IMG/VR virus record: IMGVR_UViG_2703718817_000003 | DNA from: a virus | Lineage: Duplodnaviria; Heunggongvirae; Uroviricota; Caudoviricetes | Direction: 5' to 3' (one strand) | DNA: 64,000 nt | Shown here: positions 4,306-63,225 of the stretch, in pieces | Position numbering within the stretch: the stretch's first letter is position 1 | Layout: each line of letters starts with the position of its first letter | Notes under the pieces: generated by a model | What the model was told of the DNA's origin: nothing | The model's database searches: none | What the model saw: the letters and a program-made list of their open reading frames with translations, nothing else | Position numbers and translations under genes: made by a program

Positions 4306-5034
4306 TTATTCCTGAATGCGCTTAAACTCGATTACCCACACCCAGGGATTAGCGTTCCAGCTTTCTTCACCATAGATGGATTCCCACAGGCGCTGGAACG
4401 CAACCTTGGCCATTGCGAAATCCCCCTTGGGAGTAAGGAATGTTCCCGGGTGATCAGGGAGCAAACTTCCAGCAGGCGGAACGCCCTCATCCCTTGCATC
4501 GCATTCGCTGATATCGTTCAACCGCTCAACGCGCACGTTGGTAATTTCCAACAGGATGCGTGATGCCCATCGCGGCATGTGAATTGATGGACGCCACCCA
4601 CCATCAAACTTTTCATTCACAGTGTGAGGTTTCCAGTCGGCATCATCGGGTATCGACCATAAACCGTAATCACCAGGCTTTTGCTCACAACTGGCCCGAT
4701 AAATCCTTGCTGCGTTCTTCTCATCGCCACGACAAAGGTTGTCGTTCCAGTCCACACTGCAACCATCTTCATTGCCTAATATCGCCCATGTTTCACGAAC
4801 CCAAATTCGATCGCCGACGATACCAAAGGGGCAATTGAAAACACTGCTTACACCATCAGCCCCGTACCACTGAAAACCTGCACCAATTTCCCTAACCATC
4901 ACTGGTGCTTCTGGACCAACTTCCGCAGGCTGATTTTTCATTATCCGCCGCGTCTGCGTTTTCCTTCCTTCGAGGATGGCTCGGACCATCTCATCGTTAA
5001 AAATCATCCCGCGTTCTTTCATTTTTTGATCCAC
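4306..5034 (-). CDS. ASCH/PUA-like domain phage protein
   Basis: MIFNDEMVRAILEGRKTQTRR resembles the ASCH motif (G-x-K-x-x-E/T-x-R); start among three nearby Met is uncertain. Confidence 0.5.
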   Translation of the reverse strand: MDQKMKERGMIFNDEMVRAILEGRKTQTRRIMKNQPAEVGPEAPVMVREIGAGFQWYGADGVSSVFNCPFGIVGDRIWVRETWAILGNEDGCSVDWNDNLCRGDEKNAARIYRASCEQKPGDYGLWSIPDDADWKPHTVNEKFDGGWRPSIHMPRWASRILLEITNVRVERLNDISECDARDEGVPPAGSLLPDHPGTFLTPKGDFAMAKVAFQRLWESIYGEESWNANPWVWVIEFKRIQE

Positions 5035-5038
5035 ACCA

Positions 5039-6034
5039 TCAGTTATTGAACGTGATCACTCCGCGCTCGATGGCGAAGTCGAAAAGCTGGTTGGCGGCTA
5101 CGTAAAGGCGTATGCCATGTGCTTTTTCCCATGCCCGGACATCGTTTTCTGCGCTTCTGGCGCATTCATCGCAAAGAGGAACGGCCCAGCGATCGTGTTC
5201 GTTTAACGAGCGGGCGCGGTACATGAACGGGTGATTAACTTTGCCTCCGCATCCGATGCACGGACGAGAAATCACAAACCGGAGATAAGCCGGGCTTTTA
5301 CCGAGAACCGCTTTTGGTCGGCGCATATACAGCAGGCCGGAATCCTCATCTACAGACAGGTTGACGATCTGCTCTGCGGTTATGTCCACCAGCTCACGGG
5401 TGCTGTGCTCCCAGGTGATATCCGATTCTTTCAGTGTGCCGGTAGGGATTTCCTGTTTTGGCTGACAAAATGCAATGCGACCGGCTTCATCTGGCAGCTC
5501 GTCTTTCAGATTCCGGCGAATGGCCCAAAAAGTGAGTTCAACCATGCTCAGATCGCGTTCTGGCGGTAGTTTTAACTCGCTCGCAGCCCAGTTCATAACC
5601 CAGTTGGCACGATTCAGGGATAACTGGTCATCCAGCTTGCCGTACCCCTTCATCATGTATTCCGCATCATGCTTCCAGCACAGGCGAACGGCAGAGCCGT
5701 TATAGAAATGAGTGGTTAGCTGGTGGCTGCAATCGCGCTTATCGTGCGCCTGGCAATCGTGGATATTGGAACTTACCCAATGAACAAGCGAATCTTCACC
5801 GCCTAATGCGTTAAATACGCGCTCGCTTTGAAAAAATGCTTTCAGAGACTGGTTGGCAACCAGCGAATAGTTCAGATCCACTACGCCATCTGGCGTGTTT
5901 TCAGCCTGTTCGCGCGGAAGTGGAGAGATAATGAAACGGCGACCTGCGCCAATGTAGTTGCTGGTGGGCTTGTCTACCGGAAAGACAGCCACACCAGCTC
6001 CGTTTACGAAATGAGGTGTGATTATTGCACTCAT
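5039..6034 (-). CDS. DUF968-like phage protein with C-terminal Cys cluster
   Basis: 331 aa; C-terminal CIGCGG...HDRWAVPLCDEC zinc-binding-like motifs typical of prophage DUF968 proteins. Confidence 0.5.
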   Translation of the reverse strand: MSAIITPHFVNGAGVAVFPVDKPTSNYIGAGRRFIISPLPREQAENTPDGVVDLNYSLVANQSLKAFFQSERVFNALGGEDSLVHWVSSNIHDCQAHDKRDCSHQLTTHFYNGSAVRLCWKHDAEYMMKGYGKLDDQLSLNRANWVMNWAASELKLPPERDLSMVELTFWAIRRNLKDELPDEAGRIAFCQPKQEIPTGTLKESDITWEHSTRELVDITAEQIVNLSVDEDSGLLYMRRPKAVLGKSPAYLRFVISRPCIGCGGKVNHPFMYRARSLNEHDRWAVPLCDECARSAENDVRAWEKAHGIRLYVAANQLFDFAIERGVITFNN

Positions 6035-6076: not shown

Positions 6077-6106
6077 TGTTAGAAAATTAAAATCAATATT
6101 CTAACA
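6077..6106. promoter_or_regulatory. palindromic operator-like site (TGTTAGAAAATT..ATATTCTAACA) upstream of phosphatase gene
   Basis: Inverted repeat with core TGTTAGAAAAT; same motif recurs at seven other intergenic positions. Confidence 0.5.
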
Positions 6107-6138: not shown

Positions 6139-6825
6139 TTACGGCTGGCCTCCCTTCACCTGCTTTAGCGTCAGATTTCCGCAAAAAACCGCGCCAGTGT
6201 CTATGTAGTGCTGGTTCCAGAAAGATTTCGGGCTGTTTACTGGCGTATGCCCGAAAATAAAGCTATCTGCACCAGTGATCATTCCACCAACACCATCAAC
6301 CGCGTCATAAAATCGCTCACGCCGCCAGGTAACATTGAGATCGCTAACAGGTTTACCAAACTGGTATTCGTTATCAGGATAGTCGGCATGGGCTATAACG
6401 ATAGTTTCATGCCCGGTGTTCAACTCAATGATATAGGGTAAACGTCTTACCAGCTCCACCAGCGCCCTGGCTAATATTTCCCGATCAGCGTCCAGCATGA
6501 AGAACCATTGGCCGCCATTCATTAGCCAGTTATTCACGTTGCCTGCGGGGCTTAACGCATCGATCATTAATCGCTCGTGGTTTCCCATAACCGACCGAAA
6601 CCAGGGCATCTGCAATAGCTCCAGGCATTCAACATTTTCGGTGCCGCGATCGATAAGGTCGCCAACCGATATCAGTAAATCCTGTGTCGGGTCAAAGTCC
6701 ACACGATGAAGTTCAGACATCAATCTGGTGTAGCAACCATGCAGATCACCAACAACCCATATGTTTCTGTAGCCTGAACCATCAATACTGCTATATAAAT
6801 TCACTTCATGCAGCGCCTGGGTCAT
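6139..6825 (-). CDS. Ser/Thr protein phosphatase (lambda PPase/PrpA-like, calcineurin-like phosphoesterase)
   Basis: [29 protein letters not shown] motifs; start set at MTQALHEV (6825) giving ATGA overlap with upstream gene. Confidence 0.85.
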
Positions 6826-7133
6826 GCGGCAACCTTCTCCCGCAGCCAGATACAAACCGGGCCATCTTCAGTGTCATGAATAGAGCCAACAAACCATCCT
6901 TCGCCCTCTGGTCGCTCTGGTTCCCAGGCGGCAATATCGGGACCATCTGCGTCCAGATTAAAATGATCTTCATCCATACTGCGAATAGTCCACTGAAGAT
7001 TATTTTCCTTCATCCAGGCGTCAAATTCCTCAGTGGATATATATTCACGACCTGCGCAAAACTTTTCATACTCCGGATGTGTCCAGCAGCCATATTCATC
7101 ACGTTCTACCGGCATTTCTTTAATGATGCTCAC
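6822..7133 (-). CDS. hypothetical phage protein
   Basis: 103-aa ORF, operon-style 4-bp overlaps on both sides. Confidence 0.45.
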
Positions 7134-10921: not shown

Positions 10922-10953
10922 GTGTTAGAAAATCAATTTTGATTTTCTAACAC
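10922..10953. promoter_or_regulatory. 32-bp perfect palindrome operator between divergent operons
   Basis: GTGTTAGAAAATCAATTTTGATTTTCTAACAC, perfect inverted repeat; between leftward early operon and ref-like gene. Confidence 0.6.
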
Positions 10954-10997: not shown

Positions 10998-11573
10998 ATG
11001 AAGCAAAGCTATTGGGAGAAACAGACACAAAAAGCCCTGCAAAAACTGGCTGATCCGAAATGGCGGGAGGAACAAAGGGCAAAGCGTCTTCAGCAAGCTC
11101 AACGCCTGCAGCAGCGTGCGCGAGAAAAAGCCGCATCGCCTGAATATCGGCAAAAGAAAATTGAAAAAGCGAAGCAATATGAACAGCGAAGAAAAGAGAA
11201 GGCCGCTTCTGCTCCTGTCAAAAAAACTCGCGCGTCACGCGGCCTGAAAGGCAGAACACTCACAGCAGATGAGCGCCGGATACAAACTGCCATCGGTGCT
11301 CTCCCCTGCATTGCCTGCCATATGCACGGACAGCATAGCCCTGTGGTATCCCTGCACCACATCTTCGGAAGAACAGCAGAGAACGCGCATAAATACGTCC
11401 TCCCTTTGTGTAAATGGCACCATCAACACGCAGCGCCAGCAGAGATCCGCGAGCAATACCCCTGGTTGGTTCCTGTTCATGCTGATGGAAAAATAGGCGG
11501 CAAAGCAGATTTCAGGCGGCACAATGCTGATGAAATGACGTTGTATCAGATGGTGACTGAATTAATAAATTAA
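10998..11573 (+). CDS. P1 Ref-like HNH-type protein (basic disordered N-terminus plus Cys/His core)
   Basis: Lys/Arg-rich N-terminal ~75 aa then CIACHMH...LHHIF...CKWHHQH; size (191 aa from ATG 10998) and architecture match phage P1 Ref. Confidence 0.5.
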   Translation: MKQSYWEKQTQKALQKLADPKWREEQRAKRLQQAQRLQQRAREKAASPEYRQKKIEKAKQYEQRRKEKAASAPVKKTRASRGLKGRTLTADERRIQTAIGALPCIACHMHGQHSPVVSLHHIFGRTAENAHKYVLPLCKWHHQHAAPAEIREQYPWLVPVHADGKIGGKADFRRHNADEMTLYQMVTELIN

Positions 11574-11904
11574 TTTTCTAACATTTTAAGTTGAATTGTG
11601 AGATCCGCCGTTGTACATTCACAACCGATTGGTACACCGGTCAACTTTTTGAGACAAACCGTTTGGTTTTTCGTATGATTGCCGCCGCCATACCAATGGC
11701 GGTGCAATATAGGTGGCTGAAAAGCCCCCGTTGACTCACGGTGTTCCAACCTTTATTGCGCCGCCACCAGACCGTGGAACAGTCGATGGCGGCTCCGAAA
11801 GCAAGGAGTCACTACACTATGAACAGCTACTGTCTTTTCCCATCACTCGTTATCCGCCACTCACGCGATAATCTGCATTCTTTACTCGCGCTGGGGGTGT
11901 CAAA

Positions 11905-12072: not shown

Positions 12073-12178
12073 TAAAACACACAGTTGCGCCCTGGCATTA
12101 TCGTGGGGTATATTTCTACGGCACCTTAGAAAAACGGGTGCCGGGATTGGAACCCCGGATAATGTCAAAGGCGACACA

Positions 12179-12200
12179 GACGCCGAAAGCGTCTTTTTTT
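12179..12200 (+). terminator. Rho-independent terminator
   Basis: GACGC-CGAAA-GCGTC hairpin followed by TTTTTTT. Confidence 0.6.
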
Positions 12201-12224
12201 GTGTCATGCCATCGCGCAGCCATA

Positions 12225-12320
12225 CGTAGCGTTTAGCTCAGAGATCAATGGTAGTGCTGGCTGGGCTGCCGAAAGGCAGGCCGGTTCCCTTTGACGCCGG
12301 TAGTTCCAACCCAGTCAGTG
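12225..12320 (+). ncRNA. c4-like antisense RNA of immI-type module (copy 1)
   Basis: Contains b' CCCTTTGAC (12288-12296) and a' GTTCCAA (12303-12309) complementary to b2 GTCAAAGG (12367-12374, at the icd SD) and a2 TTGGAAC (12336-12342); same targets repeated upstream as a1/b1 (12147-12171); boundaries approximate. Confidence 0.45.
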
Positions 12321-12385
12321 CTACCGCCATTGAGATTGGAACCTCACGCGGTAGCTCCTTAACTTAGTCAAAGGAGGCTGCCAAT

Positions 12386-16003: not shown

Positions 16004-16204
16004 CTTTTCGAATCCATTCGATCGGTAAATAACACCCAGCTCACTATCGAGCTGGTCCATGCCTTAAGATTAATGAAAGTCACTTGTTGACAGTCAATAA
16101 ATTCCAGGGCGGCGAAAAAACTCTGTCTATACGGATAGTGCTTGCATTTTGCTCTTTCTGCGTGTAGCGTATATACACAGGTTACACGCACGAATGGAAT
16201 TATT

Positions 16205-18396: not shown

Positions 18397-18596
18397 GTGT
18401 TTGCAAGGACATGAATAGTACACTATTATGATGGTGAAGGAATGGTACATGTTGAACCAAACCTTCGAGGATGCAGCAGACTGAAGAAATTCAGACATCC
18501 CGCAACCAGCTATCATAACAGGTCAAACCAGTTGTGATACTTGGTCAAGGCAAAGTCCGGTAATGGCGTTCTGAATACCAGAAAATAATTTCTGGC

Positions 18597-18630
18597 GAAG
18601 CCCACCTTAAGGTGGGCTTTGTTATTTTGG
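18597..18630 (+). terminator. Rho-independent terminator between convergent genes
   Basis: AAGCCCACC-TTAA-GGTGGGCTT hairpin then TTTGTTATTTT. Confidence 0.7.
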
Positions 18631-19161
18631 TGGCTTAGGAAGCGGTTTGTTCCTTAACAGATTGTATGCGATTGCGAAAAACTTCACTGACCTGCCATTT
18701 GGTTTTTCTGATACCGGGTAGGCGCTAGTGATGTGTAACCGCAACTTTTTCTTTTCCCTGAAAGCCTTAAACGCAACAAAATAATACTCCTTGTTACCCT
18801 CCCCAATATTTACCTCAATAACGGCATAGCTTCCGTATCCGGCATGGATCACCTTACCTTCCGACAATGACAGAATTGCCTCTTTTAAGTGAAGTTTGGC
18901 AAGATTATAGCGACGCTCACAAAATGGACGAGACTCTTTAGGGGCGTGGTACATTAACGCCAGTTTCTCTTCCTCAGTCTGGTGTGCATAGTCTTTTGTG
19001 AAGCAGTGAAAAGAGTACGTAACCCAAAAGCGATACTCTATCGGTTGCTTTCCTTCTTGTTGCTGAACAAACACAGCCTGATGAGCATCAAGAAATGACA
19101 AATCACGAATAACACCATCAGGGTGTTCAAATGCTCGCCACTTTTCAACTTCCTGACTCAC
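18622..19161 (-). CDS. hypothetical protein, single-gene opposite-strand insertion (moron-like)
   Basis: 179 aa on minus strand between plus-strand operons, own upstream region and shared terminator. Confidence 0.5.
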   Translation of the reverse strand: MSQEVEKWRAFEHPDGVIRDLSFLDAHQAVFVQQQEGKQPIEYRFWVTYSFHCFTKDYAHQTEEEKLALMYHAPKESRPFCERRYNLAKLHLKEAILSLSEGKVIHAGYGSYAVIEVNIGEGNKEYYFVAFKAFREKKKLRLHITSAYPVSEKPNGRSVKFFAIAYNLLRNKPLPKPPK

Positions 19162-20874: not shown

Positions 20875-21855
20875 ATGTCCCAGGAGCTACAGCAATACTT
20901 TCTACAGTCCGTTACCATCAACGGAAACAAAGTACCCAGGGAGTGGATATTCACTGCCGTATATGTGGAAAAGGCAAACCTGCGTGCACCATTGCTGAAA
21001 CTGGAAATTCACGACATTACCGGCACCATAATTGATGACTGGAAAACAAAATACGGCGCAGCACTGGTTGCAGAGATGGGAGATCCACAAGGCAATTCAG
21101 GCACGTTTAAAACAACTTTTTTCGTAACATCTGCGGTGCTGGCTGGTGATGTCATCACGGTCATTGCAGTCAGTGAAGACGTTCGGATATTTAAGATCCC
21201 CGCTATACGGGCTAACCTGCATACAAATAAAACGCCTGATACCATTTTCAAGACGTATACCGGTACACTGAAAATCGCCTCCAGCGCATTGAAACGAAGC
21301 TGTACGTACCATCTTTCCGCCGGGGAAAAACCCTCCAAAATGCTATCTGAAATGGCCCGCGACAAAGGCGCTTTATGCTGGGCCTGCCGTGGTCAGTTTA
21401 ACTTTTATACATTAGCTGACCTTATGAAAGCCAAACCATCATTCACCTATGAAGGGAACAACCCCAGGGCGGAATACACGATTTCAAAAATGAGGCTTAT
21501 ACAGCAAGAGTATGCCGTTACGGCAAATACTCAGTATCGATTTACCGGCTATTCAATGACTGAAGGCTATGTCGAATATGGCGATAGCTCACTTCCAATA
21601 CGCTATATATCCGATCCGGATATGGAAACTCTGCGCAATATGCAATTGTCGCTCGTACCCAAAATGGATATTGAGGTCGCGGGTAATCCCGACATCACGC
21701 CGGGAATGGTTATTGAGATCCTCGTGTATCGTTACGACCAGGAAAATAAGCTGGACGAATCGTTGCCTCGTAAGCTGTTGGTGAAAAACGTAGCCCATTT
21801 TGAGGACCGGATCGGATATACAACACGAATGATATTAGGAGTACCCAACCAGTGA
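20875..21855 (+). CDS. possible baseplate hub-like protein
   Basis: 326 aa immediately upstream of gpV-like spike gene with GTGA overlap; assignment by position only. Confidence 0.3.
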   Translation: MSQELQQYFLQSVTINGNKVPREWIFTAVYVEKANLRAPLLKLEIHDITGTIIDDWKTKYGAALVAEMGDPQGNSGTFKTTFFVTSAVLAGDVITVIAVSEDVRIFKIPAIRANLHTNKTPDTIFKTYTGTLKIASSALKRSCTYHLSAGEKPSKMLSEMARDKGALCWACRGQFNFYTLADLMKAKPSFTYEGNNPRAEYTISKMRLIQQEYAVTANTQYRFTGYSMTEGYVEYGDSSLPIRYISDPDMETLRNMQLSLVPKMDIEVAGNPDITPGMVIEILVYRYDQENKLDESLPRKLLVKNVAHFEDRIGYTTRMILGVPNQ

Positions 21856-22529
21856 AACGCAGAGCGCAAATCGTAGGGACCAAACACCCTGCCGGACTTA
21901 TGCGAGCGCAGGTCCGCATACTGCCTGACTGGAACGGTGTACCGGATGAAGACCTCCCATGGGCAGAGTATCAAATGCCTATCGGTAACGCCTTTACACC
22001 TACAGTCAGCGGCGATTTAGTCTGGGTAGAATTTCCTTATCTGGATGCTAAAGGCAGGATAGACACGCGCCGACCTTTAATCGTTGGTGCGGCGCAGGAT
22101 GCCCCAGGAGGCGTACCAAATGTGCCTCCGGAAGCCTCCGGACAAGGAAGTGGATGGTCGCCAGAAGAAGTTGATGGTGCTCCTGCCCGCCCCCAGTTTT
22201 CGGCGACTGAAGATTTTGTTATTCACCGAAACAATATCCTTGAGGTCAGAACGGCTGGCGGTGGCTATGAAATAGCAAACACCGCCGCAGGATCAAGGAT
22301 AGGGATGAACGAATCCGGCCAGATTTACATAATCGGCCCGGCGAATATAGTGCTTAATGCTGGAGGTGAGGTTAACGTCAAATCAAGCAGCAAAACCAAT
22401 GTATCCTCTGATGGAGACGTTAATGTAAAAGGCAGCAATGTAACCGTCGCCGCTGATGGTGATATAGCCCTGAAAGCTGGTGGCGCGCTAAAAGCAACAG
22501 CGAGCAATTTCTCCTTTGTGAAGGGATAG
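21852..22529 (+). CDS. baseplate central spike protein, gpV/Phage_base_V-like
   Basis: N-terminal OB-like region (GDLVWVEFPYLD...RRPLIVGA) and C-terminal beta-helix-like repeats (GGEVNVKSS..GDVNVKGSNVTVAADGDIALKAGG). Confidence 0.5.
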   Translation: MKRRAQIVGTKHPAGLMRAQVRILPDWNGVPDEDLPWAEYQMPIGNAFTPTVSGDLVWVEFPYLDAKGRIDTRRPLIVGAAQDAPGGVPNVPPEASGQGSGWSPEEVDGAPARPQFSATEDFVIHRNNILEVRTAGGGYEIANTAAGSRIGMNESGQIYIIGPANIVLNAGGEVNVKSSSKTNVSSDGDVNVKGSNVTVAADGDIALKAGGALKATASNFSFVKG

Positions 22530-22540
22530 CAAAATGCAAA

Positions 22541-22576
22541 ACTGTGTTAGATAATTGAGTTTTATTTTCTAACACA
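22541..22576. promoter_or_regulatory. palindromic operator-like site upstream of rdgC
   Basis: CTGTGTTAGATAAT-N8-ATTTTCTAACACAG inverted repeat. Confidence 0.55.
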
Positions 22577-22588
22577 GTTTTGCGAAAC

Positions 22589-23494
22589 ATGAGATTAGTC
22601 GCCTTTAAAAACATATACGTCTATCGCCTTGCCCGCGAAATTAAACTGGACTCAACCACCGTTAGTGATGCCTTAAGCCAATTCACATTCACTCCATGCG
22701 CATCACAAGAAATGGCAAAAGTCGGATGGGTGCCGGTTCTGGCTGACAACCTGATCCATGAATACCACGGTTTTCTACTTCTCCAGCAACAGCGAGAAAT
22801 TAAGCTCCTGCCCTCTCATGTCATTAAGGAGGAAGTGCAGAAAAAAGTGGAAAAGCTCGAAAATGAGCAATCTCGTAAGCTGAAGAAGTCGGAAAAAAAC
22901 ACCCTGAAGGATGAAGTTCTCCACTCTTTGTTGCCTCGCGCATTCACTCGCAAATCATTGTCGCGAATCCTTATTGATCGCGACAACTATCTGGTCTTCG
23001 TAGAAGCTTCCAGCGCCAGAAAAGCAGAAGAAATGCTGGCGCTCTTACGTAAATCACTTGGCAGCCTGCCAGTGATTCCATTCACGCCGATAGAACCGCT
23101 CGAAATGACTATGACCGAATGGTTCAAGTCAACATTTCCTCAAGGCTTTAAAGCAGGCGAAGAAGCCATATTGAAATCGCTGTTCGATGACGGCGGCGCA
23201 GTTCGTTGCAAGAAAGTAGACCTACAGTCAGAGGAAATAATGACTCATATTGAAGCCGGAAAAGTTGCAACAACAGTTGCAATCAACTGGCAGGACCGCG
23301 CGACCTTCAGGTTAAACGATGATATGAGCATCAAAGCACTGACGTTTTGCGATGATCTCTATGACCAGAACGATGACATCGACCGTGAAGATGTTGCCCA
23401 GCGATTTGATGCTGACTTCATTCTGTTCACAAGCGAATTATCCGCGATGTTTAGCTCGCTGGTGGAGGCCATTGGCGGTGAAGCAGAGCATTAA
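22589..23494 (+). CDS. rdgC: recombination-associated protein RdgC homolog
   Basis: Strong match to E. coli RdgC along whole length (VAFKNIYVYRL..., KLKKSEKNTLKDEVLHSLLPRAF, ALLRKSLGSLPVIPF, DIDREDVAQRFDADFILFTSEL, GGEAEH). Confidence 0.85.
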   Translation: MRLVAFKNIYVYRLAREIKLDSTTVSDALSQFTFTPCASQEMAKVGWVPVLADNLIHEYHGFLLLQQQREIKLLPSHVIKEEVQKKVEKLENEQSRKLKKSEKNTLKDEVLHSLLPRAFTRKSLSRILIDRDNYLVFVEASSARKAEEMLALLRKSLGSLPVIPFTPIEPLEMTMTEWFKSTFPQGFKAGEEAILKSLFDDGGAVRCKKVDLQSEEIMTHIEAGKVATTVAINWQDRATFRLNDDMSIKALTFCDDLYDQNDDIDREDVAQRFDADFILFTSELSAMFSSLVEAIGGEAEH

Positions 23495-30226: not shown

Positions 30227-30619
30227 TCACTGTCTCCATGCATTTTTCAGCTCCGGAATATCAGCCATTTCCACTAACTTCCGAAGCCCCGCGCTGACCT
30301 TCCCATTACCAACCGCAGCAAGCCAATCCCTTACTGACTTCGGCATATAAAGAGTGGTCGTTACAGGATCTTCCACTCTTACAGGCGTGCCAATTTGAGG
30401 CCACTTAACAGATGCCAAAACGTCAGAAGGCGGGGTAAGCGCGGGAACATTAAGAATAGCCTTTCCTGAATGGAGAATCACGATTCGTTCAGCCAGGGAA
30501 AGAATGTCTCTTTCAGTAAGGATTGATGACAGTTGAGCTTCTACAAGGCATCTGCTGCTTGTATTCAGAGAATGGCTTTTAGCACCATTTTTGTATGAAA
30601 CGAAGATCTTGTACGCCAT
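30227..30619 (-). CDS. hypothetical protein, candidate regulator adjacent to operator cluster
   Basis: 130 aa; transcribed divergently from head gene; C-terminal helical segment (VRDWLAAVGNGKVSAGLRKLVEM). Confidence 0.4.
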   Translation of the reverse strand: MAYKIFVSYKNGAKSHSLNTSSRCLVEAQLSSILTERDILSLAERIVILHSGKAILNVPALTPPSDVLASVKWPQIGTPVRVEDPVTTTLYMPKSVRDWLAAVGNGKVSAGLRKLVEMADIPELKNAWRQ

Positions 30620-30620
30620 T

Positions 30621-30700
30621 TGTTCTAATGTTTTATGTTAGAAAATTAAGATTAAAACATACTAACACAAGATTGTTAACGAAAATTATTTTTCTAATGC
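30621..30700. promoter_or_regulatory. cluster of operator-like half-sites (TGTTAGAAAAT / TTCTAATG) in divergent promoter region
   Basis: TTCTAATG (30623), ATGTTAGAAAATT (30635), ACTAACAC (30661), TTTTTCTAATG (30689). Confidence 0.5.
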
Positions 30701-30778: not shown

Positions 30779-32476
30779 GTGAACAAGAACATTGAGCCAG
30801 CTCGTAAGCGCGAGCGCGAGATTATGAATCGGGCGGCAAGCGTCATGGCTATGACCGTCGATCCAACCACTGATGCTGCCGGTAACATGATTGCCGACAA
30901 CGAAGTGATGATGGCTAACCTGGAAAAAGCTATCCAGAAAGAGCCTATGTTTGAAGGCGTTGAACCAGAAGCAGCTCGCCAGATCATTGGTAGCTGGGCC
31001 ATGTCTATTCATGAATACAAACGCCAGTATGGGCATTATCCGGCAAGCGATGTATTAGCCAACGCCCATGTAGCACTTGAGCGCCTGATGATGGAGTCCG
31101 CTAAAGAGACTCATGAAGGCGCTGGCAAAGCCATGTTTGAATCAGTAGCCAAGGACATGCGCACCTCCGATGGTGTAATGAAGGTTGCACAATATGCCGC
31201 ACTGATCCTGCCTGCTTCTCTCGGCGCAGCCACCAGCGACGCATGTACGTTTATCCCTTGTGATCGTGATGAAACCAATATTTACGAGCTGACCAACGTT
31301 GCTGGTACAAAATTCGGTACATTCGAGCAGGGCGATGAACTGAACATGCAGTCTGCTGGAGTGTATTCGCAGATGAAACGCCTGTACATCCTGACCGAAA
31401 AAGGAGATGGCAGCAAAACCACCTTCCAGTTTGATATCCAGAACTTCGAAGGCCAGGCCTGCCCACTGCGCCAGGGCTACAACAAACTGCTGATTAACCG
31501 CAAACCGTCCAAAGTAGATGATGGTGACGGCAACCTGTATTTCAACGACAAAGACGTCAACGGCAACTCTTTCTCTGTGACGGCAAAGGTTCGATACGAT
31601 ACCGGCGTTATCGATATCACCTTTAATGAAGCACCAGCAGAAGGCACAGAAATCGCTGTTCAGGTTGAAATCAACATTGAACGCAATCCGAACCTGATAC
31701 CTGTCATTAACCAGTCCATGCGCAATTACGCCCTGCGCCCGTCGGAGTACGTGATCGCATCCGAACATACGGTTATGGCTGCATCTGACCTGAGCCGTGA
31801 ACACGGACTCGAACTGGCAGCATTGCAATTCTCTGCAATGCGCAACTGGATTTCCCACGAAATCGATATGATGCGCCTGCGCACTCTGGTATTCCACACC
31901 GTTTACGGTCGTGAATTTGATGTGGCACTGCCAGAAGCGCAGAACTACGAGTCGTGGGTTGGTTTAATTCGCCATGTTGTGAACGCGCTGTCACAGGAGA
32001 TGGCTGACCGCACCCTGACTACCGGTATCCGTGGTGGCTTTGCTGGTGGCGATGCTGCTAACTTCCTGCGTTCCTTACCGCCGCAGCACTTCCAGTTGGC
32101 ACCGGGCTATGTACAGTCGCCGTACATTCAATACATCGGCACCCTGTTTGGTTCCATTCGTATCTACGAAGTGCCGAAGCCTATCTGCAAACAATTCCAG
32201 AAATATGGCTACGACTTCGGCCTGGACGACATCTATTTCTATGGTCGTGGCGAAGGCATTGGTAAAGCAGGCCTGGTCGCAGGTGATGCTGTGCCTGCTA
32301 TTCCGTATGTCCACGAAACAAATCCAGCCCTGGTGAACCGCACCACTTTCTGGGGCAAAGCAATCAACGATGTGCATCCGCGCAACGGTGAGAACTATTT
32401 CACTCGCCTTCGCCTGACACGTTCGAAAGAAGGTGCGATTGACATGTTGAGCGGGCAAATCAACGAAAAAAAGTAG
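30779..32476 (+). CDS. putative major head (capsid) protein precursor
   Basis: 565 aa (~62 kDa) with helical N-terminal ~120 aa (delta/scaffold-like) followed by large beta-rich body; immediately upstream of sheath-like gene; start GTG 30779 or ATG 30824. Confidence 0.45.
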   Translation: MNKNIEPARKREREIMNRAASVMAMTVDPTTDAAGNMIADNEVMMANLEKAIQKEPMFEGVEPEAARQIIGSWAMSIHEYKRQYGHYPASDVLANAHVALERLMMESAKETHEGAGKAMFESVAKDMRTSDGVMKVAQYAALILPASLGAATSDACTFIPCDRDETNIYELTNVAGTKFGTFEQGDELNMQSAGVYSQMKRLYILTEKGDGSKTTFQFDIQNFEGQACPLRQGYNKLLINRKPSKVDDGDGNLYFNDKDVNGNSFSVTAKVRYDTGVIDITFNEAPAEGTEIAVQVEINIERNPNLIPVINQSMRNYALRPSEYVIASEHTVMAASDLSREHGLELAALQFSAMRNWISHEIDMMRLRTLVFHTVYGREFDVALPEAQNYESWVGLIRHVVNALSQEMADRTLTTGIRGGFAGGDAANFLRSLPPQHFQLAPGYVQSPYIQYIGTLFGSIRIYEVPKPICKQFQKYGYDFGLDDIYFYGRGEGIGKAGLVAGDAVPAIPYVHETNPALVNRTTFWGKAINDVHPRNGENYFTRLRLTRSKEGAIDMLSGQINEKK

Positions 32477-37907: not shown

Positions 37908-38203
37908 CTTGAGGGCAATTTTTACACCAGCTATTTACACCAGTGATGGCATTTTTTACACACCACAACAAAATCAATGAGTTACATTCAAAAAACACTT
38001 AACAGGTGTGCTATAAAAATAGCTATAACATACGATGCTATCTGAGGGTGATTTTTACACATTACTTATTAATCAATAAATTACAAATGATGTTAGCCGT
38101 TAAAGCTCCAACCAACTCACTAATGGTGTAAGAATTGCCCTCAATCTCCCATCTTTAAGGGCAAATCCTACACCTACAGAGAGGTGTAGAAATTGCCCTT
38201 AAG
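37908..38203. repeat. iteron cluster downstream of repE (incC-like), mixed orientation
   Basis: Five copies of TGAGGGCAA(A/T)NNTTACACC-type 19-21-bp repeats at 37908, 38042, 38125(inv), 38156, 38183(inv). Confidence 0.7.
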
Positions 38204-38954
38204 ACTGCTGATAGGTGAATTTTATTTTTGTAACTCTGCCACCTTCTGTAACCTCTGAGAAAACTATTTTCATTTTTGTGTTTTTTTCGATTTCAGCTAC
38301 AGCTTTTGCCAGAAAGCTTCTCTTAAATTCGGCGTACCGTTGATAGCTTTTGGGAAGACCATAACGCTCCCGCATCCATTCAACGCCAAGTATAGCGAAG
38401 CCGCTCCCATCATCCTTTCTATACTGGCATAAGGACTCATAAAGCCGCATAGAATAAGGGTTTGTCAGGCGAGACACTTCAGTAAAATTCAGCCTCGTGA
38501 ACCTCTTATCAAGCAGAGTAAAAAACGGCATGAGATATGGATTCAGATGAATAATGTAAGTCCCCCGGCGTGGTGAGTAAGCATCCTTAATCATCCAGGG
38601 ATAAGACTCATAACTGTCTTCTGATTCGGTTGATTCATCAGGGTTATATATCGTGACTTTCTTCTCACTAAGTCCGGAGATAGCTTTACGAATATCCTTG
38701 CTGGCTTCAGCAGAGGGCAAATTATACATCTCTGCATATTCGTTGACCGTCAACTCACAGGCTCCTGAACCAAGAACGCCATCCTTAGAAGCATAGCGAA
38801 GTCTTCCCACCACAATAAACAACAGTCGCTTTTGGTCGCGTGTCAGGTGATAAGCCGCCTCTGTGATCTCATTGGCCTGCGCCAAGCTACGGCTAATTGG
38901 TGTCGCTGATTCAATCAGACTGACGGCTTTTGCCGTTAATTCCGCTCTGTTCAT
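38199..38954 (-). CDS. repE: RepE-type (Rep_3 family) iteron-binding plasmid replication initiator
   Basis: 251 aa from ATG 38954; similarity to F RepE (ITEAAYHLTRDQKRLLFIVV, AEASKDIRKAISGLSEKKVTIY, YESYPWMIKDAYSPRRGTYIIHLNPYLMPFF, NPYSMRLYESLCQYRKDDGSGF). Confidence 0.85.
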   Translation of the reverse strand: MNRAELTAKAVSLIESATPISRSLAQANEITEAAYHLTRDQKRLLFIVVGRLRYASKDGVLGSGACELTVNEYAEMYNLPSAEASKDIRKAISGLSEKKVTIYNPDESTESEDSYESYPWMIKDAYSPRRGTYIIHLNPYLMPFFTLLDKRFTRLNFTEVSRLTNPYSMRLYESLCQYRKDDGSGFAILGVEWMRERYGLPKSYQRYAEFKRSFLAKAVAEIEKNTKMKIVFSEVTEGGRVTKIKFTYQQS

Positions 38955-38976
38955 AACCCTGTGTGATCCTTCAAAT

Positions 38977-39239
38977 GGTGAGGGCAATTTTTACATCACT
39001 TTGAGGGCAATTACTACACCTTTTGAGGGCAAATCTTACACCTGCTGAGGGCAAATCTTACACCTCAATAGCTTAATTGAGGGCAAATCTTACACCTTGG
39101 TCCTCTACAAGCCCCGCCACACCTGACCTCCGCGATGCCTAAAAAGGATCTAAAAAGGATTAAAAAGAGAAAAAGGTTTATAAAAATACTCTGTGGATAT
39201 GTGAATTGCGTCACTTAAGGTGTAAAAATCACCCTCAAT
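38977..39239. repeat. origin-like region: five direct iterons at ~22-bp spacing, DnaA-box-like site, A-rich repeats, GATC pairs
   Basis: Iterons at 38977, 39001, 39023, 39046, 39077 (TTGAGGGCAAATCTTACACC), inverted copy 39214-39239, TGTGGATAT at 39193, TAAAAAGGA repeats 39140-39175. Confidence 0.7.
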
Positions 39240-52868: not shown

Positions 52869-54817
52869 TAAAGAAACCTATTCGAATAAATATCCAGTCC
52901 ACTTTTGCAGATACGCTCACTGGATATACGCCTAATCGTTGGGTGGCGGAAGATATCACCGAGGATGATTTACTTATCGAGCCTGCGACGCTGGAAGATA
53001 TCGAGCTGGCCTATATGGGCAACGAAATTTTGGTAACTACCAATGAGGCAATGTTCGAAGCTATAACCACAACAAAATTGCGGTTAGCGCAAACAATGCG
53101 AGCATTTGTCCGGGCGCTTAATCGCGGCCTGAATGGCACTGACATTGCTGCGGGTACGGATGAGGCAGGTGAATATGAAGACGGACGTAATAGTATCGGT
53201 GGGGCAATCATTGGGCGCGTGCGCCGGGTTGCTAATATCCCTGTTGTAACAGCACAAATACCTCTAACCGATGGACAAACGACAAGCATAATTTTCCATT
53301 CTCCAACCGCAGACGGCACAAGAATTAAAGGGGATGACGAGCTGGTTGCGTTTCAGTTTCTTCTTAACAAAAGAAACGTTACGCATGTTGTTGCGCCAAT
53401 CGGTGGGCGTGATGTATCTCTGAGCCAGGTGTGTCAGGCGCTTTCTAACCTCATTGAGCGTAACAGTGCAAAATTCAAAAAAGCAAAGGAGCGCCAGGAC
53501 AAAATGAAGGCTGATATTGAGGGGTATCTCAATGAAGCCGACAAGCTGGCAGAAGAACGTTCTGTGCTGATTGAGCAGGTTGAAGACGCACAGCGGGGGC
53601 TGGCAGAGAAACGCTCAACACTCAATGATATGCAGAATAAATTAGACGCACAAAAAGCCCTTAACGCGGAATTGCAGGCTAAACGCGATAATTTATTGTC
53701 AGCTAAGAGCCAAGGAACTAAAGAGCGTGCCTTCAATGATCAACTGCGACACATAAAACATAATCTTGCTACAGAAGGCCAAACAACGCTGGATAATGGT
53801 GCTGTAGTTAAGTATGTCACGTCAGGCAGTGATAGCTTTGTCACGATTGAGGCACCAGAAGGCAATTTCAGTATTGATGTCAGTGCTGTTAAAGGTGGGA
53901 GTTCAGCGGACGCTGCAACCAAATTACTTAAAGCCTATCGTGAACATAATGCTGATCAATACAAAGTGGATGTGTTGCCGGGCCAGCCTGAGCCAACTGA
54001 TCAGCCGCAGCCTGAACAGGAGCCACAACCAGCATCACATCCTGATCCCCTGGAGGTTGGTAAATATCGCTATGCGCTCCAATCTCGCCCGGCGGGTGTT
54101 GGTGCGGTTCCTGAAGGAAATAAAGCTGTACTTGACCGTCCTGATCAGGCTGATCCGTATTACGAATATGCTCGTCACGGAATCATTACGTATGACCGCA
54201 AACTGACAGACGAAGAAGTCAGTCAGTACGAGTTGCTATATCTCCCTGGTGACGATGAATTGAAAGAGATTGCAGGCGAATTGGTTGCGTCCAGTATGTC
54301 GAACCATATTGATGGCTATGTTGATCTGTTTGGAAGCGACTTGAAAACCTTTAAGGCGCAGATAAAAATCCTCTTCCGCAAAGCATTTCCTAACGTCGCT
54401 TATCCACTTGGAGATGGGGAGAACCTTTTTATAATGGATATCTATGACGCGCTTCAGAATCAATCAGAAGTAGTCGAAGCTGAACAGACATTAGATCAGG
54501 CACCGGAAGCAGTACAAGAACCAGAACCTGAGTCTGAACCTGAATCCCCCCAAGAGTCTGATACAGGTTCAGATGGGCCAGTAGTTAGTGAGGCTGATCA
54601 GGAGGCGGACAGTGCGCTGGAATATCTGAAATCCGTGCCGTTGCAGTTTACGTCCCGTGATTTGACGGTGATTAGAGCGGAGTTTGATCGCATTCAGGAG
54701 GCAGCTAATGTTCTTATCAACGCAGGTCGATATGATGAGAACGAGTCACTTGTTGGTGCGGCAGCCGATCACCTGATCAACATTCTGGCAGAGATACAAC
54801 AAGGGGGCGTGTGGTGA
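52865..54817 (+). CDS. large hypothetical protein (DarA-like by size and position)
   Basis: 650 aa; ATGA overlap with upstream gene; acidic Pro/Glu-rich linkers; no enzymatic motif. Confidence 0.45.
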   Translation: MIKKPIRINIQSTFADTLTGYTPNRWVAEDITEDDLLIEPATLEDIELAYMGNEILVTTNEAMFEAITTTKLRLAQTMRAFVRALNRGLNGTDIAAGTDEAGEYEDGRNSIGGAIIGRVRRVANIPVVTAQIPLTDGQTTSIIFHSPTADGTRIKGDDELVAFQFLLNKRNVTHVVAPIGGRDVSLSQVCQALSNLIERNSAKFKKAKERQDKMKADIEGYLNEADKLAEERSVLIEQVEDAQRGLAEKRSTLNDMQNKLDAQKALNAELQAKRDNLLSAKSQGTKERAFNDQLRHIKHNLATEGQTTLDNGAVVKYVTSGSDSFVTIEAPEGNFSIDVSAVKGGSSADAATKLLKAYREHNADQYKVDVLPGQPEPTDQPQPEQEPQPASHPDPLEVGKYRYALQSRPAGVGAVPEGNKAVLDRPDQADPYYEYARHGIITYDRKLTDEEVSQYELLYLPGDDELKEIAGELVASSMSNHIDGYVDLFGSDLKTFKAQIKILFRKAFPNVAYPLGDGENLFIMDIYDALQNQSEVVEAEQTLDQAPEAVQEPEPESEPESPQESDTGSDGPVVSEADQEADSALEYLKSVPLQFTSRDLTVIRAEFDRIQEAANVLINAGRYDENESLVGAAADHLINILAEIQQGGVW

Positions 54818-61702: not shown

Positions 61703-61818
61703 GCTAAAAGCTAGCTTAATTTTCTAACACAGTGTGTTTTTATACACTGTTGATCCGATGGCGCGTGATCGAGTAGGATCGCGGTCACTGCTCCGGTAGC
61801 GACTGCCAAAAAAGCAAA

Positions 61819-61900: not shown

Positions 61901-62860
61901 GTGAGTATTTTAAATTCAGTTTCAGTAACTTTCAACACTTCTGAGTATAAAAACAACACTGAATACCACAAAAAAATCAAAGGTCATCAGTTGAGTTTTT
62001 TTGCTCGTCATAGCGGTTTTCTTTCCCCTTCACATAGCGCCATTATTGCCGAGTTCGCCAACCTGGCAGGAGCTACCGATGAATACATGATCCGTCGCTC
62101 ATATGCTGATATGTCCGAGATTACAGGACGCAGTATTTCTACTGTGCGCCGGGCATTTACCGAAGCGACGAAGTGCGGAATGCTTGTTAAGCAGCATCAG
62201 GTAGCGAATAACAATGCTCAGGTGTGTAACGTGTACCGGTTTACAACACAATTTCTCCACTTCATTCATGTAGCAATGGAGATAGGGAGTAAGCAGGGCA
62301 TCAAATTTGCCAACGCCACAAAACTGGTTAAGCAGTTGATTTCAAAGGTTCGTTATTTTTTTGAAACTGGGAACCCCCTGTTCAAATTGAACAAGTCCCC
62401 CCATGTTCAAAATGAACAGCCAATAGAAAATAAGAGTCACTCTATAGCCAAAAGAAGAGAAAGATCATGCGCGGTTCAGCCAAAGGCTTCACCAGCAGAT
62501 AGTTCTCAAGCGGATAATGGCTTGCTGGATAAAAAAACAGTAATCAGGGAAGAACTTACCAACCACTGCCTGGCGGCAGCAAAAGCGAGAGCTGCAAAGC
62601 GTCGTTCAGACGAGGGGTACGCAAAACGGCAGGCTCTGTATCGTACCGCTGAAAAACTGGCAAAAAAATTTGCATGGTTACGTAGTGCTACCACAGTGAA
62701 TAAGCCCAAACGATCCAGCGCCCTGGATTTCTCTATGGATTATTCTGCTTCCCAGGGATGTGCAACCATCAATGAAGCATTTGACCTGATGAAACAGCGT
62801 GGCTATCGGTCTGAATTTGACCGGGAAGACTGGTCAATTCCGGAGGGCTTTCGGGGATGA
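61901..62860 (+). CDS. HTH DNA-binding protein (candidate regulator or replication-associated protein)
   Basis: HTH-like segment MSEITGRSISTVRRAFTEATKCGML; start uncertain (GTG 61901, TTG 61991 or ATG 62084). Confidence 0.45.
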   Translation: MSILNSVSVTFNTSEYKNNTEYHKKIKGHQLSFFARHSGFLSPSHSAIIAEFANLAGATDEYMIRRSYADMSEITGRSISTVRRAFTEATKCGMLVKQHQVANNNAQVCNVYRFTTQFLHFIHVAMEIGSKQGIKFANATKLVKQLISKVRYFFETGNPLFKLNKSPHVQNEQPIENKSHSIAKRRERSCAVQPKASPADSSQADNGLLDKKTVIREELTNHCLAAAKARAAKRRSDEGYAKRQALYRTAEKLAKKFAWLRSATTVNKPKRSSALDFSMDYSASQGCATINEAFDLMKQRGYRSEFDREDWSIPEGFRG

Positions 62861-62916: not shown

Positions 62917-62946
62917 ATGTTAGAAAATTAAATTGATGTTTCTAAT
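62917..62946. promoter_or_regulatory. palindromic operator-like site upstream of second immI module
   Basis: ATGTTAGAAAATTAAATTGATGTTTCTAAT; further half-site TCTTTCTAATG at 63005-63015. Confidence 0.5.
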
Positions 62947-63139
62947 CAAGAATGTATGATTTATATCGTCACTAAAAAACAGCATCTGATAAAAATTCTG
63001 TTGATCTTTCTAATGTTCAGGCTTATATTCATGCCGTCGTAGCAAATTCTGCGACCGGGTTTAGCAGCCTGAATGTTAGTGCGGACAACCGCAGATATCC
63101 GATATTGCGGTATTTTTGTGTCCGTAAAACCGCGTTACG

Positions 63140-63225
63140 CCCAAATTATGGTGGGGCGTGATGGGGAGGCTTCGGCCTGCTGGTTTCACTAACGCCAGTC
63201 TGCTAACCCCGTCACGTCCTGCCAC
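63140..63225 (+). ncRNA. c4-like antisense RNA of immI-type module (copy 2, different specificity)
   Basis: b' TTCACTAAC (63185-63193) and a' CTGCTAA (63200-63206) complementary to b2 GTTAGTGAG (63260-63268, includes SD) and a2 TTAGCAG (63230-63236); a1/b1 copies at 63061-63081; boundaries approximate. Confidence 0.45.

What the first reader, a model, noticed from the sequence alone, without database searches (positions are those of the whole stretch)
10922..10953. Dispersed palindromic operator motif (core TGTTAGAAAAT / ATTTTCTAACA) at eight or more promoter regions
A 32-bp perfect palindrome sits between the leftward early operon and the ref-like gene. The same core recurs at 6077-6106 (upstream of the phosphatase), 11573-11583, 22541-22576 (upstream of rdgC), 30621-30700 (divergent head promoter), 61718-61733, 62917-62946 and 63005-63015 (upstream of immI copy 2). 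A single repressor recognising many scattered operators is how P1 C1 controls its regulon, but this motif differs from the P1 operator consensus, suggesting a master repressor of distinct specificity. The repressor gene is not identified; candidates are 30227..30619 and 61901..62860.
Basis: partly seen in the sequence, partly recalled or inferred. Interest (0 to 1): 0.6.

Follow-up and report, generated by a model that had tools for sequence, protein, structure and literature searches.

The report
Operators of the D6-type C1 repressor
The scattered TGTTAGAAAAT motif is real and is most likely the binding-site set of the master prophage repressor (a distant relative of phage P1's C1) of a D6-like phage-plasmid, an expected feature of this phage family with a different recognition sequence; the repressor gene lies outside the window.

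Summary
TGTTAGAAAAT/ATTTTCTAACA occurs 12 times at up to 1 mismatch (1.5 expected). Ten strong half-sites sit in seven intergenic regions, and it is the most over-represented intergenic word in the window.

The window is a D6-like, P1-family phage-plasmid. The sites occupy the positions where P1 carries its annotated C1 operators: ref, the two immI/c4 regions, repL, hrdC-dmt, and the early operons containing pdcB/pmgU and ppp. In D6 and the closest plasmid the motif also lies 12 bp upstream of the c1 homologue and upstream of lpa. It is an invariant island in otherwise diverged DNA across C1 lineages of 70-100% identity. P1 has no such site, and the window has no P1-type operator.

The best reading is mono- and bivalent operators of the D6-type C1. 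This protein is 345 aa and about 21% identical to P1 C1 (hhalign probability 97%). Binding is inferred, not shown.

61901..62860 is RepL, and 30227..30619 is a protein of unknown function with no detectable DNA-binding domain. The c1 gene is not in the window; it lies about 11 kb to the left in the nearest relative.

This is an ordinary regulon of a known kind with a new recognition sequence. In passing I noted a separate late-promoter motif and identity with the host DeoR half-site.

The parts
6077..6106 (.). Bivalent (palindromic) operator: TGTTAGAAAAT-N8-ATATTCTAACA. It lies between ppp and the pdcB-like gene, at the head of the leftward operon 6034->195.
   Evidence: (PWM 29.6 and 24.8). 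It overlaps a minus-strand promoter-like site: -35 TTGATT 6096-6091, -10 TATTTT 6073-6068. It is conserved in D6 (D6 80706-80741).
10922..10953 (.). Bivalent operator with 15-nt arms and a TT centre, in the divergent region between the leftward early operon (10881->6139, ending in ppp) and ref (10998-11573).
   Evidence: PWM 28.4 and 27.1. A leftward promoter-like site (-35 TTGATT 10936-10931, -10 GATACT 10913-10908) lies inside or next to the left arm. The operator block is a conserved island in diverged flanks when aligned with D6.
11567..11586 (+). Monovalent operator AAATTAATTTTCTAACATTT (core 11573-11583). It overlaps the ref stop codon and lies upstream of immI copy 1.
   Evidence: PWM 27.3. 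A promoter-like site TTGAAT-17-TACATT at 11591-11619 starts 8 bp downstream. It is conserved in D6. Downstream lie an isrK/a1b1-like element at 12121-12199 and C4 RNA at 12244-12331.
22545..22574 (.). Bivalent operator TGTTAGATAAT-N8-ATTTTCTAACA (the inverted repeat extends to 22536-22583), ending 14 bp upstream of the rdgC/hrdC start (22589).
   Evidence: (PWM 26.5 and 27.8). A -10-like GATAAT (22550-22555) lies inside the left arm. The D6 equivalent is at 64113-64148. A Klebsiella relative has the same arrangement upstream of rdgC.
30636..30665 (.). Degenerate bivalent operator: strong left arm TGTTAGAAAAT and right arm ACATACTAACA (8 of 11). It lies between the orf52-like gene (30227-30619, minus strand) and major capsid gene 23 (30779, plus strand). 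Weak TTCTAATG variants lie at 30621-30631 and 30689-30699.
   Evidence: (PWM 28.8; weak sites 9.7 and 11.5). The D6 equivalent at 54201-54220 lies 13 bp upstream of orf52. A Klebsiella relative keeps TTTTTCTAACA upstream of its orf52 homologue.
61713..61732 (+). Monovalent operator AGCTTAATTTTCTAACACAG (core 61719-61729), between pro (ends 61702) and repL (61901-62860).
   Evidence: PWM 30.0. The D6 equivalent is at 22464-22483, upstream of repL. Promoter-like sites lie 20-130 bp downstream.
62918..62947 (.). Degenerate bivalent operator: strong left arm TGTTAGAAAAT and right arm TGTTTCTAATC (7 of 11). It lies just after repL and upstream of immI copy 2.
   Evidence: PWM 29.0. It overlaps the promoter-like site TTGATG-16-TATGAT at 62933-62960. 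Downstream lie a1b1 at 63023-63075 and C4 RNA at 63144-63229. The D6 equivalent is at 21260-21279.
63005..63015 (+). Weak candidate site TCTTTCTAATG (7 of 11), inside the spacer of a second immI-2 promoter-like site.
   Evidence: Sequence. The promoter-like site is TTGATC-17-TATATT at 63001-63029. It scores below the PWM threshold, so confidence is low.

Best explanation
The motif is the operator set of the D6-type homologue of the phage P1 C1 prophage repressor.

Each site is an asymmetric element of about 18 bp, with consensus 5'-AAATTAATTTTCTAACAY-3'. Sites occur singly (monovalent: 11573, 61719) or as two inverted copies whose AT-rich ends overlap by about 4 bp, giving a palindrome of about 32 bp (bivalent: 6077, 10922, 22545; degenerate at 30636 and 62918).

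In the plasmid prophage, C1 is encoded outside this window, next to the cre/lox-like site. It would occupy these sites, which lie in or beside sigma-70-type promoters. That would keep the following off: lytic replication (repL), both antirepressor operons (c4-icd-ant), ref, hrdC-methylase, two long early operons, and, outside the window, the late activator lpa and c1 itself.

Inactivation of C1 by the Ant-type antirepressors would release the regulon. Lpa would then switch on late operons through a different motif.

Shown here: the motif's existence, enrichment, intergenic and promoter location, orthology of positions with the P1 C1 operators, conservation, and co-occurrence with a C1 homologue. 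Inferred: that C1 is the binder, that binding represses, and the stoichiometry.
For: (1) Identity of the replicon. The window is 89% identical to phage D6 and 99% identical to D6-like E. coli plasmids.

(2) Positional orthology with the C1 operators annotated in P1 NC_005856:
- Oref and Oppp correspond to window 10922.
- Omat (at the ref stop codon) and Oc4 correspond to 11573.
- Odmt (uhr-hrdC-dmt) corresponds to 22545.
- OpmgT corresponds to 6077 (the pdcB..pmgU operon).
- OrepL corresponds to 61719.
- Orlf (just after repL) and Oc4 correspond to 62918.
- In D6, Oc1 corresponds to 196-215 (12 bp before the c1 ATG), Olpa to 4629-4648, and OpmgR to 10315.

(3) Specificity swap. The window-derived PWM gives 15 hits in D6 and 0 in P1. 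The P1 consensus ATTGCTCTAATAAATTT (PMC8546580) gives 0 hits at up to 3 mismatches in the window.

(4) The D6-type C1 is a true but distant C1 homologue: BLASTP 21% identity over 240 aa, E 2e-8; hhalign probability 97.2%, E 3.5e-11, 225 columns; NCBIfam phage_rep_C1 E 9e-6.

(5) Footprints. In 25 distinct c1-upstream sequences (C1 79-100% identical), the proximal TTTTATGTTAGAAAACTAAATCGAG is invariant and the distal TTTTCTAA is the only conserved block in unalignable DNA. The lpa-upstream operator is kept in all lineages, including a 70% C1 lineage. The ref-upstream operator is a conserved island when the window is aligned with D6.

(6) Five of the seven window loci overlap -35, spacer or -10 elements of promoter-like sites that read into the adjacent gene.

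(7) The architecture of single sites plus overlapping inverted pairs parallels the P1 monovalent and bivalent operators Obanab and Oc1ab.

(8) The closest plasmid, NZ_CP104667.1, encodes a C1 that is 80% identical to D6 C1, and carries the motif upstream of c1, lpa (bivalent) and the dut operon.
Against: No binding or expression data exist here; the assignment to C1 rests on homology and position.

The c1 gene is not in the window, so its presence on this particular replicon is inferred from relatives.

Two sites (11573 and 61719) lie 8-20 bp upstream of the best promoter-like -35 rather than over it, and several promoter calls are weak (8 of 12 matches).

The orf52-like protein has almost the same plasmid distribution as C1 (139 against 149 plasmids), so co-occurrence does not separate the two.

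The outer 8 bp of the half-site equal the host DeoR half-site.

I could not read the D6 genome paper (PMC5800970 is not held), so I do not know what it says about operators.
Confidence: 0.8

Rival explanations
1. The sites are bound by another element-encoded regulator rather than C1, for example the product of 30227..30619 (the orf52-like gene), whose own upstream region holds the densest cluster of motif copies.
For: The cluster at 30621-30700 lies directly upstream of this gene. The protein is confined to the same plasmid clade as the motif. By eye, its C-terminal 45 residues have a strand-helix-helix layout.
Confidence: 0.08
2. The host repressor DeoR, whose operator is TGTTAGAA-TTCTAACA, recognises the half-sites. 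Either it is the real binder, or it adds host nucleoside-status input to C1-controlled promoters.
For: The outer 8 bp of every strong half-site (TGTTAGAA / TTCTAACA) equal the DeoR half-site quoted in PMC5326754. DeoR is known to loop between distant operators (same paper).
Against: There is no contiguous 16-bp DeoR palindrome in the window (0 hits at up to 3 mismatches); here the 8-mers are 14 bp further apart. Conservation extends 3-9 bp inward of the DeoR half-site (ATT and the AAATTA positions carry 1.2-1.9 bits). P1, which lives in the same host, has C1 operators rather than this motif at the orthologous promoters. An 8-bp coincidence with one of a few hundred known E. coli operators is not very improbable.
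Confidence: 0.05
3. The motif is the D6-type version of the Lpa late-promoter box, i.e. an activator site rather than an operator.
For: One copy lies in the divergent region next to the major capsid gene (30636). Lpa of D6 is only 31% identical to P1 Lpa, so a changed box is expected.
Against: The sites precede early and immunity genes (ref, repL, c4-icd-ant, hrdC, c1, lpa itself), not the tail, lysis or portal operons. They have no fixed 4-bp spacing to a -10 element, unlike the P1 late promoters. A different motif, AAATMACAMACT followed by a -10-like hexamer, sits 50-70 bp upstream of the late operons in the window and in D6: 12 hits against 1.5 expected in the window, and 10 of 10 D6 hits at late operons.
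Confidence: 0.02
4. The motif is a chance product of AT-rich intergenic sequence or of recent duplication, with no regulatory role.
For: The intergenic regions are somewhat AT-richer than the window as a whole (44.6% against 47.8% GC).
Against: There are 9 intergenic hits against 0.26 expected from intergenic composition. The flanks of the copies are unrelated. The motif is conserved as an island in diverged DNA across lineages.
Confidence: 0.01

Closest known systems
Phage P1/P7 C1 repressor and its dispersed operators (ImmC; about 20-22 operators, 17-bp asymmetric consensus ATTGCTCTAATAAATTT)
   Same: Both have one repressor with many scattered operators at early promoters. The same target functions are controlled: ref, c4-icd-ant, repL, hrdC-dmt, lpa, c1, and the pmg and ppp operons. 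Both have single asymmetric sites plus overlapping inverted pairs. The repressor gene sits next to the lox-type site and pacAB. Both operators have an AT-rich tail (AATAAATTT in P1, AATTAATTT here on the complementary strand) and a shared TCTAA / TTAGA word.
   Different: The core sequence differs (TGTTAGAAAAT against ATTGCTCTAAT), with no cross-matches in either genome. The repressor is only about 21% identical and about 60 aa longer, with a C-terminal region of about 100 aa that has no P1 counterpart. Palindromic pairs are more frequent and span about 32 bp rather than 28 bp. No Coi homologue was found in the window, and Lxc was not detected in a D6-like plasmid (PMC6799933). There are two immI copies, each with its own operator.
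P1 Lpa-dependent late promoters (9-bp inverted repeat AAGTGACTT at -22, then 4 bp, then the -10 element)
   Same: These are also a dispersed short motif in intergenic regions of the same phage family.
   Different: The sequence, the spacing rule and the gene class differ. The window has its own late motif AAATMACAMACT and a single P1-type box at 16077-16085.
E. coli DeoR operators (TGTTAGAA-TTCTAACA)
   Same: The 8-bp half-site is identical and the arrangement is palindromic.
   Different: The half-sites are separated by 14 extra bp. Single half-sites are conserved. Conserved positions extend beyond the DeoR half-site. The motif is restricted to the element.

Membership tests
P1-type C1-controlled operators (ImmC regulon) | Match to the P1/P7 operator consensus ATTGCTCTAATAAATTT | tested here: not met
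   There are 0 hits at up to 3 mismatches in the window. Conversely, the window PWM gives 0 hits in P1. These are therefore not P1-specificity operators.
P1-type C1-controlled operators (ImmC regulon) | The replicon encodes a C1-family repressor | tested here: inconclusive
   None is present in the 64-kb window. One is present in D6 (orf1), in the closest plasmid NZ_CP104667.1 (about 10.9 kb left of the window start) and in 149 PLSDB plasmids. Homology to P1 C1: hhalign probability 97.2%.
P1-type C1-controlled operators (ImmC regulon) | Many dispersed sites at promoters of early, lytic and immunity genes, at positions orthologous to the P1 operators | tested here: met
   The seven window loci and the additional D6 loci map onto Oref/Oppp, Omat/Oc4, Odmt, OpmgT, OrepL, Orlf/Oc4, Oc1, Olpa and OpmgR.
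P1-type C1-controlled operators (ImmC regulon) | Operators upstream of c1 itself (autoregulation) and of lpa | tested here: met
   This was tested in relatives only, because both genes lie outside the window. The sites are D6 196-215 and 4629-4648. They are invariant across 25 c1-upstream and 18 lpa-upstream variants.
P1-type C1-controlled operators (ImmC regulon) | Asymmetric monovalent sites plus bivalent sites made of two overlapping inverted copies | tested here: met
   The monovalent sites are 11573 and 61719. The bivalent sites are 6077, 10922 and 22545, with degenerate ones at 30636 and 62918. Compare P1 Obanab and Oc1ab.
P1-type C1-controlled operators (ImmC regulon) | Direct binding by C1 and repression of the adjacent promoter | not testable with these tools
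   This needs EMSA or footprinting, ChIP, or reporter assays.
Lpa-dependent late promoters | Box at about -22, a fixed 4 bp from a -10 hexamer, upstream of morphogenesis and lysis operons | tested here: not met
   The sites precede early genes and have no fixed -10 spacing. The late operons carry a different motif.
Host DeoR operators | Contiguous 16-bp palindrome TGTTAGAA-TTCTAACA | tested here: not met
   There are 0 hits at up to 3 mismatches. Only the 8-bp half-site is shared.

The most novel reading that the evidence does not exclude
Every strong operator half-site ends in the exact host DeoR half-site (TGTTAGAA). The D6-type immunity operators could therefore also be read by host DeoR. 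That would couple derepression of prophage early genes (repL, antirepressors, ref) to deoxyribose-5-phosphate, a signal of DNA and nucleoside breakdown. It would be a host metabolic input into a P1-family lysis-lysogeny switch. The evidence here does not exclude this, but the spacing and the extended conservation argue against canonical DeoR binding.
Probability: 0.05. Interest if true: 0.7.

Novelty: new member of a known kind. Interest (0 to 1): 0.3.

Why it matters
D6-like phage-plasmids are common in E. coli, Salmonella and Shigella: 149 PLSDB plasmids carry this C1 type. Their immunity circuitry has only been inferred by gene homology to P1.

A defined operator consensus has four practical consequences:
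- It gives the C1 regulon of this lineage.
- It predicts that D6-like and P1-like elements are hetero-immune at the ImmC level.
- It offers a natural pair of homologous repressors with non-overlapping operator sequences, useful for working out how the structurally uncharacterised C1 family reads DNA.
- It provides parts for orthogonal repressor/operator tools.

It does not reveal a new kind of system.

Tried and rejected
- P1 late-promoter (Lpa) box. I read the annotated P1 late promoters. Their box is AAGTGACTT, unrelated to the motif, so I rejected this.
- P1 C1 consensus in the window. There were no hits.
- C1, Lpa and Coi of P1, and C1 and Lpa of D6, by tblastn against the window. There were no hits, so the repressor is not in the window.
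It is RepL, with only a sub-threshold HTH_36 hit.
- Co-occurrence as a way to separate C1 from orf52. Both proteins have nearly the same plasmid distribution, so it is not informative.
- Scan of species-representative genomes for the bivalent pattern. It returned only four MAG contigs unrelated to the window, where a similar palindrome precedes an AbiEi-like antitoxin gene. This is irrelevant to the finding.
- Canonical DeoR palindrome. It is absent.
- Literature. The D6 genome paper and the P1 genome paper are not held. Full-text searches for the motif strings and for D6 operators found nothing relevant.
- The strict sigma-70 scan found promoters only at the immI-2 sites. The other promoter assignments come from a relaxed scan and are tentative.

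Full report
**What is there**

The sequence at 10922-10953 is GTGTTAGAAAATCAA-TT-TTGATTTTCTAACAC. It has two 15-nt arms that are 100% complementary, around a 2-nt centre. It is therefore nearly, but not exactly, a perfect palindrome.

The 11-mer TGTTAGAAAAT occurs 12 times on both strands at up to 1 mismatch, against 1.48 +/- 1.13 in dinucleotide shuffles. I built a 20-nt weight matrix from the ten clear half-sites. It scores them 24.8-30, and nothing else in the window scores above 12.2.

All ten half-sites lie in seven intergenic regions. Intergenic DNA is 11.9% of the window, and TGTTAGAAA is its most frequent 9-mer. A Markov model trained only on the intergenic DNA predicts 0.26 hits where 9 are seen.

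Three loci are clean palindromes with identical geometry, 11 + 8 + 11 bp: 6077-6106, 10922-10953 and 22545-22574. Two have one strong arm and one degenerate arm: 30636-30665 and 62918-62947. Two are single half-sites: 11573-11583 and 61719-61729. A few TTCTAATG variants (30621, 30689, 63005) are weak candidates only.

Even the single sites share an AT-rich extension. The unit is about 18 bp and asymmetric, AAATTAATTTTCTAACAY, and the palindromes are two such units overlapping by about 4 bp.

**What the replicon is**

The window is a D6-like member of the P1 family of phage-plasmids. It is 89% identical to phage D6 around the finding and 99% identical to E. coli plasmids of about 90 kb. Its plus strand corresponds to the D6 minus strand, from roughly D6 position 88 kb down to 20 kb.

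Gene identities next to the sites were confirmed with PHROGs and pairwise comparison:
- the pdcB-like HNH gene (5039-6034)
- ppp (6139-6855)
- ref (10998-11573)
- rdgC/hrdC (22589-23494)
- the major capsid gene (30779-32476)
- pro (60704-61702)
- RepL (61901-62860)

Rfam finds two C4 antisense RNAs (12244-12331 and 63144-63229) with their upstream target elements. There really are two immI regions.

**Why these are C1-type operators**

The P1 record NC_005856 annotates the C1 operators: Oref, Omat (at the ref stop codon), Ossb, Oc4, OrepL, Orlf (just after repL), Odmt (uhr-hrdC-dmt), Obanab, O26, Oppp, OpmgRa/b, OpmgT, Olpa and Oc1a-e.

The window sites sit at the corresponding places:
- between ref and the divergent operon that ends in ppp (10922)
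- at the ref stop codon ahead of immI-1 (11573)
- ahead of hrdC and the methylases (22545)
- ahead of the operon containing the pmgU homologue (6077)
- ahead of repL (61719)
- just after repL, ahead of immI-2 (62918)

The two most diagnostic P1 targets, c1 itself and lpa, lie outside the window. In D6, however, the matrix built from the window finds a site 12 bp upstream of the c1 homologue (196-215), one upstream of lpa (4629-4648), and further sites at pmgS, repL, both immI copies, hrdC, ref, pdcB, orf52 and the dut operon. That makes 15 hits in D6. P1 has none.

Conversely, the P1 consensus ATTGCTCTAATAAATTT (quoted in PMC8546580) has no match at up to 3 mismatches in the window. The two operator sequences are thus mutually exclusive and follow the phage type.

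**The likely binder**

D6 orf1, annotated as 'prophage repressor, similar to P1 C1', is a genuine but distant C1 homologue:
- 21% identity over 240 aa, E 2e-8
- profile-profile probability 97.2%, E 3.5e-11 over 225 columns
- NCBIfam phage_rep_C1 at E 9e-6, far below the equivalog cut-off

It is 345 aa against 283 aa for P1 C1, with a C-terminal region that has no P1 counterpart. No relative has a solved structure.

Neither P1-type nor D6-type C1 or Lpa is encoded in the window. In the closest plasmid, NZ_CP104667.1, the C1 gene (80% identical to D6 C1) lies about 10.9 kb beyond the window's left end. The motif is found upstream of that c1, as a full palindrome upstream of lpa, and upstream of the dut operon.

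**Conservation**

I fetched 31 IMG/VR loci encoding C1 proteins that are 79-100% identical to D6 C1. Their 25 distinct c1-upstream sequences fall into three lineages that cannot be aligned over most of the region. Even so, the proximal TTTTATGTTAGAAAACTAAATCGAG is invariant, and a distal TTTTCTAA stands alone as a conserved block.

The lpa-upstream operator is likewise kept in every lineage, including a Shigella plasmid whose C1 is 70% identical. Upstream of ref, the window and D6 have diverged flanks around an identical operator block. A Klebsiella relative keeps the palindrome upstream of rdgC and a half-site upstream of its orf52 homologue. A Leclercia plasmid whose C1 is only 30% identical no longer matches the matrix.

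**Mechanism**

At 6077, 10922, 22545 and 62918, and at the weak 63005 site, the sites overlap the -35, spacer or -10 of promoter-like elements reading into the adjacent gene. This fits steric repression. At 11573 and 61719 the site lies 8-20 bp upstream of the best candidate -35. These promoter calls are weak, so they remain inference.

Comparison with the 20 aligned P1 operators allows two possible registers. In one, the two operators share TCTAA. In the other, the complementary strand RTGTTAGAAAATTAATTT aligns its AT-rich tail with the P1 tail AATAAATTT. The second register makes the palindromes architecturally equivalent to the P1 bivalent operators (two units overlapping at their AT-rich ends, 32 bp against 28 bp). 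I cannot decide between the two registers without a structure.

**Alternatives**

- *The Lpa late-promoter box.* This is excluded. The P1 boxes are AAGTGACTT, 4 bp from a -10 element. The window's late operons carry their own motif, AAATMACAMACT followed by a -10-like hexamer. It gives 12 hits against 1.5 expected, and in D6 all ten hits lie 50-70 bp upstream of late operons.
It has no Pfam or NCBIfam hit and no structural neighbour. It has no P1 homologue, whereas P1 has C1 operators at the orthologous positions. Its distribution mirrors that of C1, so it cannot be excluded by co-occurrence. I leave it at about 8%.
- *Host DeoR.* The outer 8 bp of the half-site equal the DeoR half-site (TGTTAGAA-TTCTAACA; PMC5326754). 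But no contiguous DeoR palindrome exists in the window, the spacing differs by 14 bp, and conservation extends beyond the DeoR half-site. I regard this as probably coincidental and flag it as the most novel reading that is not excluded.

**Verdict**

The feature is the D6-lineage counterpart of the P1 C1 operator regulon, with a different recognition sequence. That makes it a new member of a known kind.

I found no description of these operators in the searchable literature. The D6 genome paper could not be read, so prior description cannot be ruled out.

Interest is modest at 0.3. The finding is useful for annotating a widespread phage-plasmid lineage and for studying C1-family DNA recognition, but it is not surprising.

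Noticed in passing
window 19251, 27954, 30709, 39283, 46796, 51436, 55226, 58952 (all + strand); D6 (L004/L005) 19215, 25241, 27747, 31531, 38135, 45511, 54144, 56918, 67413, 72120: A second dispersed motif, AAATMACAMACT, is followed after 2-5 nt by a -10-like hexamer. It lies 50-70 bp upstream of late operons (tail, tail fibre, lysis, dar, portal, capsid). It gives 12 hits at up to 1 mismatch against 1.5 expected in the window, and only 3 in P1. It is probably the D6-type counterpart of the P1 Lpa late-promoter box, again with changed sequence.
   Followed up: partly
window 16077-16085: This is the single intergenic P1-type late-promoter box: CAACAAGTGACTT-TCAT-TAATCT on the minus strand (AAGTCACTT on the plus strand). 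It lies between mat and gene 26, like the shared LP26/LPpmgL box of P1.
   Followed up: no
all strong half-sites, e.g. window 10923-10930 and 10945-10952: The outer 8 bp (TGTTAGAA / TTCTAACA) are identical to the half-site of the host DeoR operator TGTTAGAA-TTCTAACA (PMC5326754). No contiguous DeoR palindrome is present. Possible cross-talk is untested.
   Followed up: partly
window 12121-12331 and 63023-63229: There are two complete immI-type antisense modules: C4 RNA at 12244-12331 and 63144-63229, with upstream a1b1/isrK-like target elements. Each is followed by icd and a different antirepressor, and each is preceded by an operator.
   Followed up: partly
[not shown]
   Followed up: partly
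window 37909-39088: There are repeated TTGAGGGCAAATC-type words on both sides of the gene at 38199-38987 (minus strand), which corresponds by position to D6 orf42 (annotated there as a putative RepA-type replication initiator). They look like plasmid replication iterons.
   Followed up: no
window 18435-18620 (+ strand): There is a full-length Rfam match to the sroH sRNA (113 bits; the gathering threshold is 80), next to the ORF at 18622-19161 (minus strand), in the region where D6 carries a RelE/HigA-type addiction module.
   Followed up: no
L041-L044 (MAG contigs JAKPAG010000034.1, JAMHVU010000095.1, WBUO01000236.1, QFNN01000011.1): These contigs are unrelated to the window. They carry a near-identical palindrome, TGTTAGAAAATAACGTGCTATTATCTAACA, 15 bp upstream of a gene pair that I read as AbiEi-like antitoxin and nucleotidyltransferase toxin, from the translated sequence only. 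It is probably that system's own operator, and the match to the pattern is a coincidence.
   Followed up: partly
L040 5583-5990 (Leclercia plasmid NZ_CP042508.1, C1 30% identical): The region upstream of this distant C1 homologue lacks the D6-type motif but contains three TTCTAA words (AATTCTAAG, GTTTCTAAA, GATTCTAAG). This hints that a TCTAA core may be common to operators of the whole C1 family: P1 has CTCTAAT and the D6 type has TTCTAAC.
   Followed up: no
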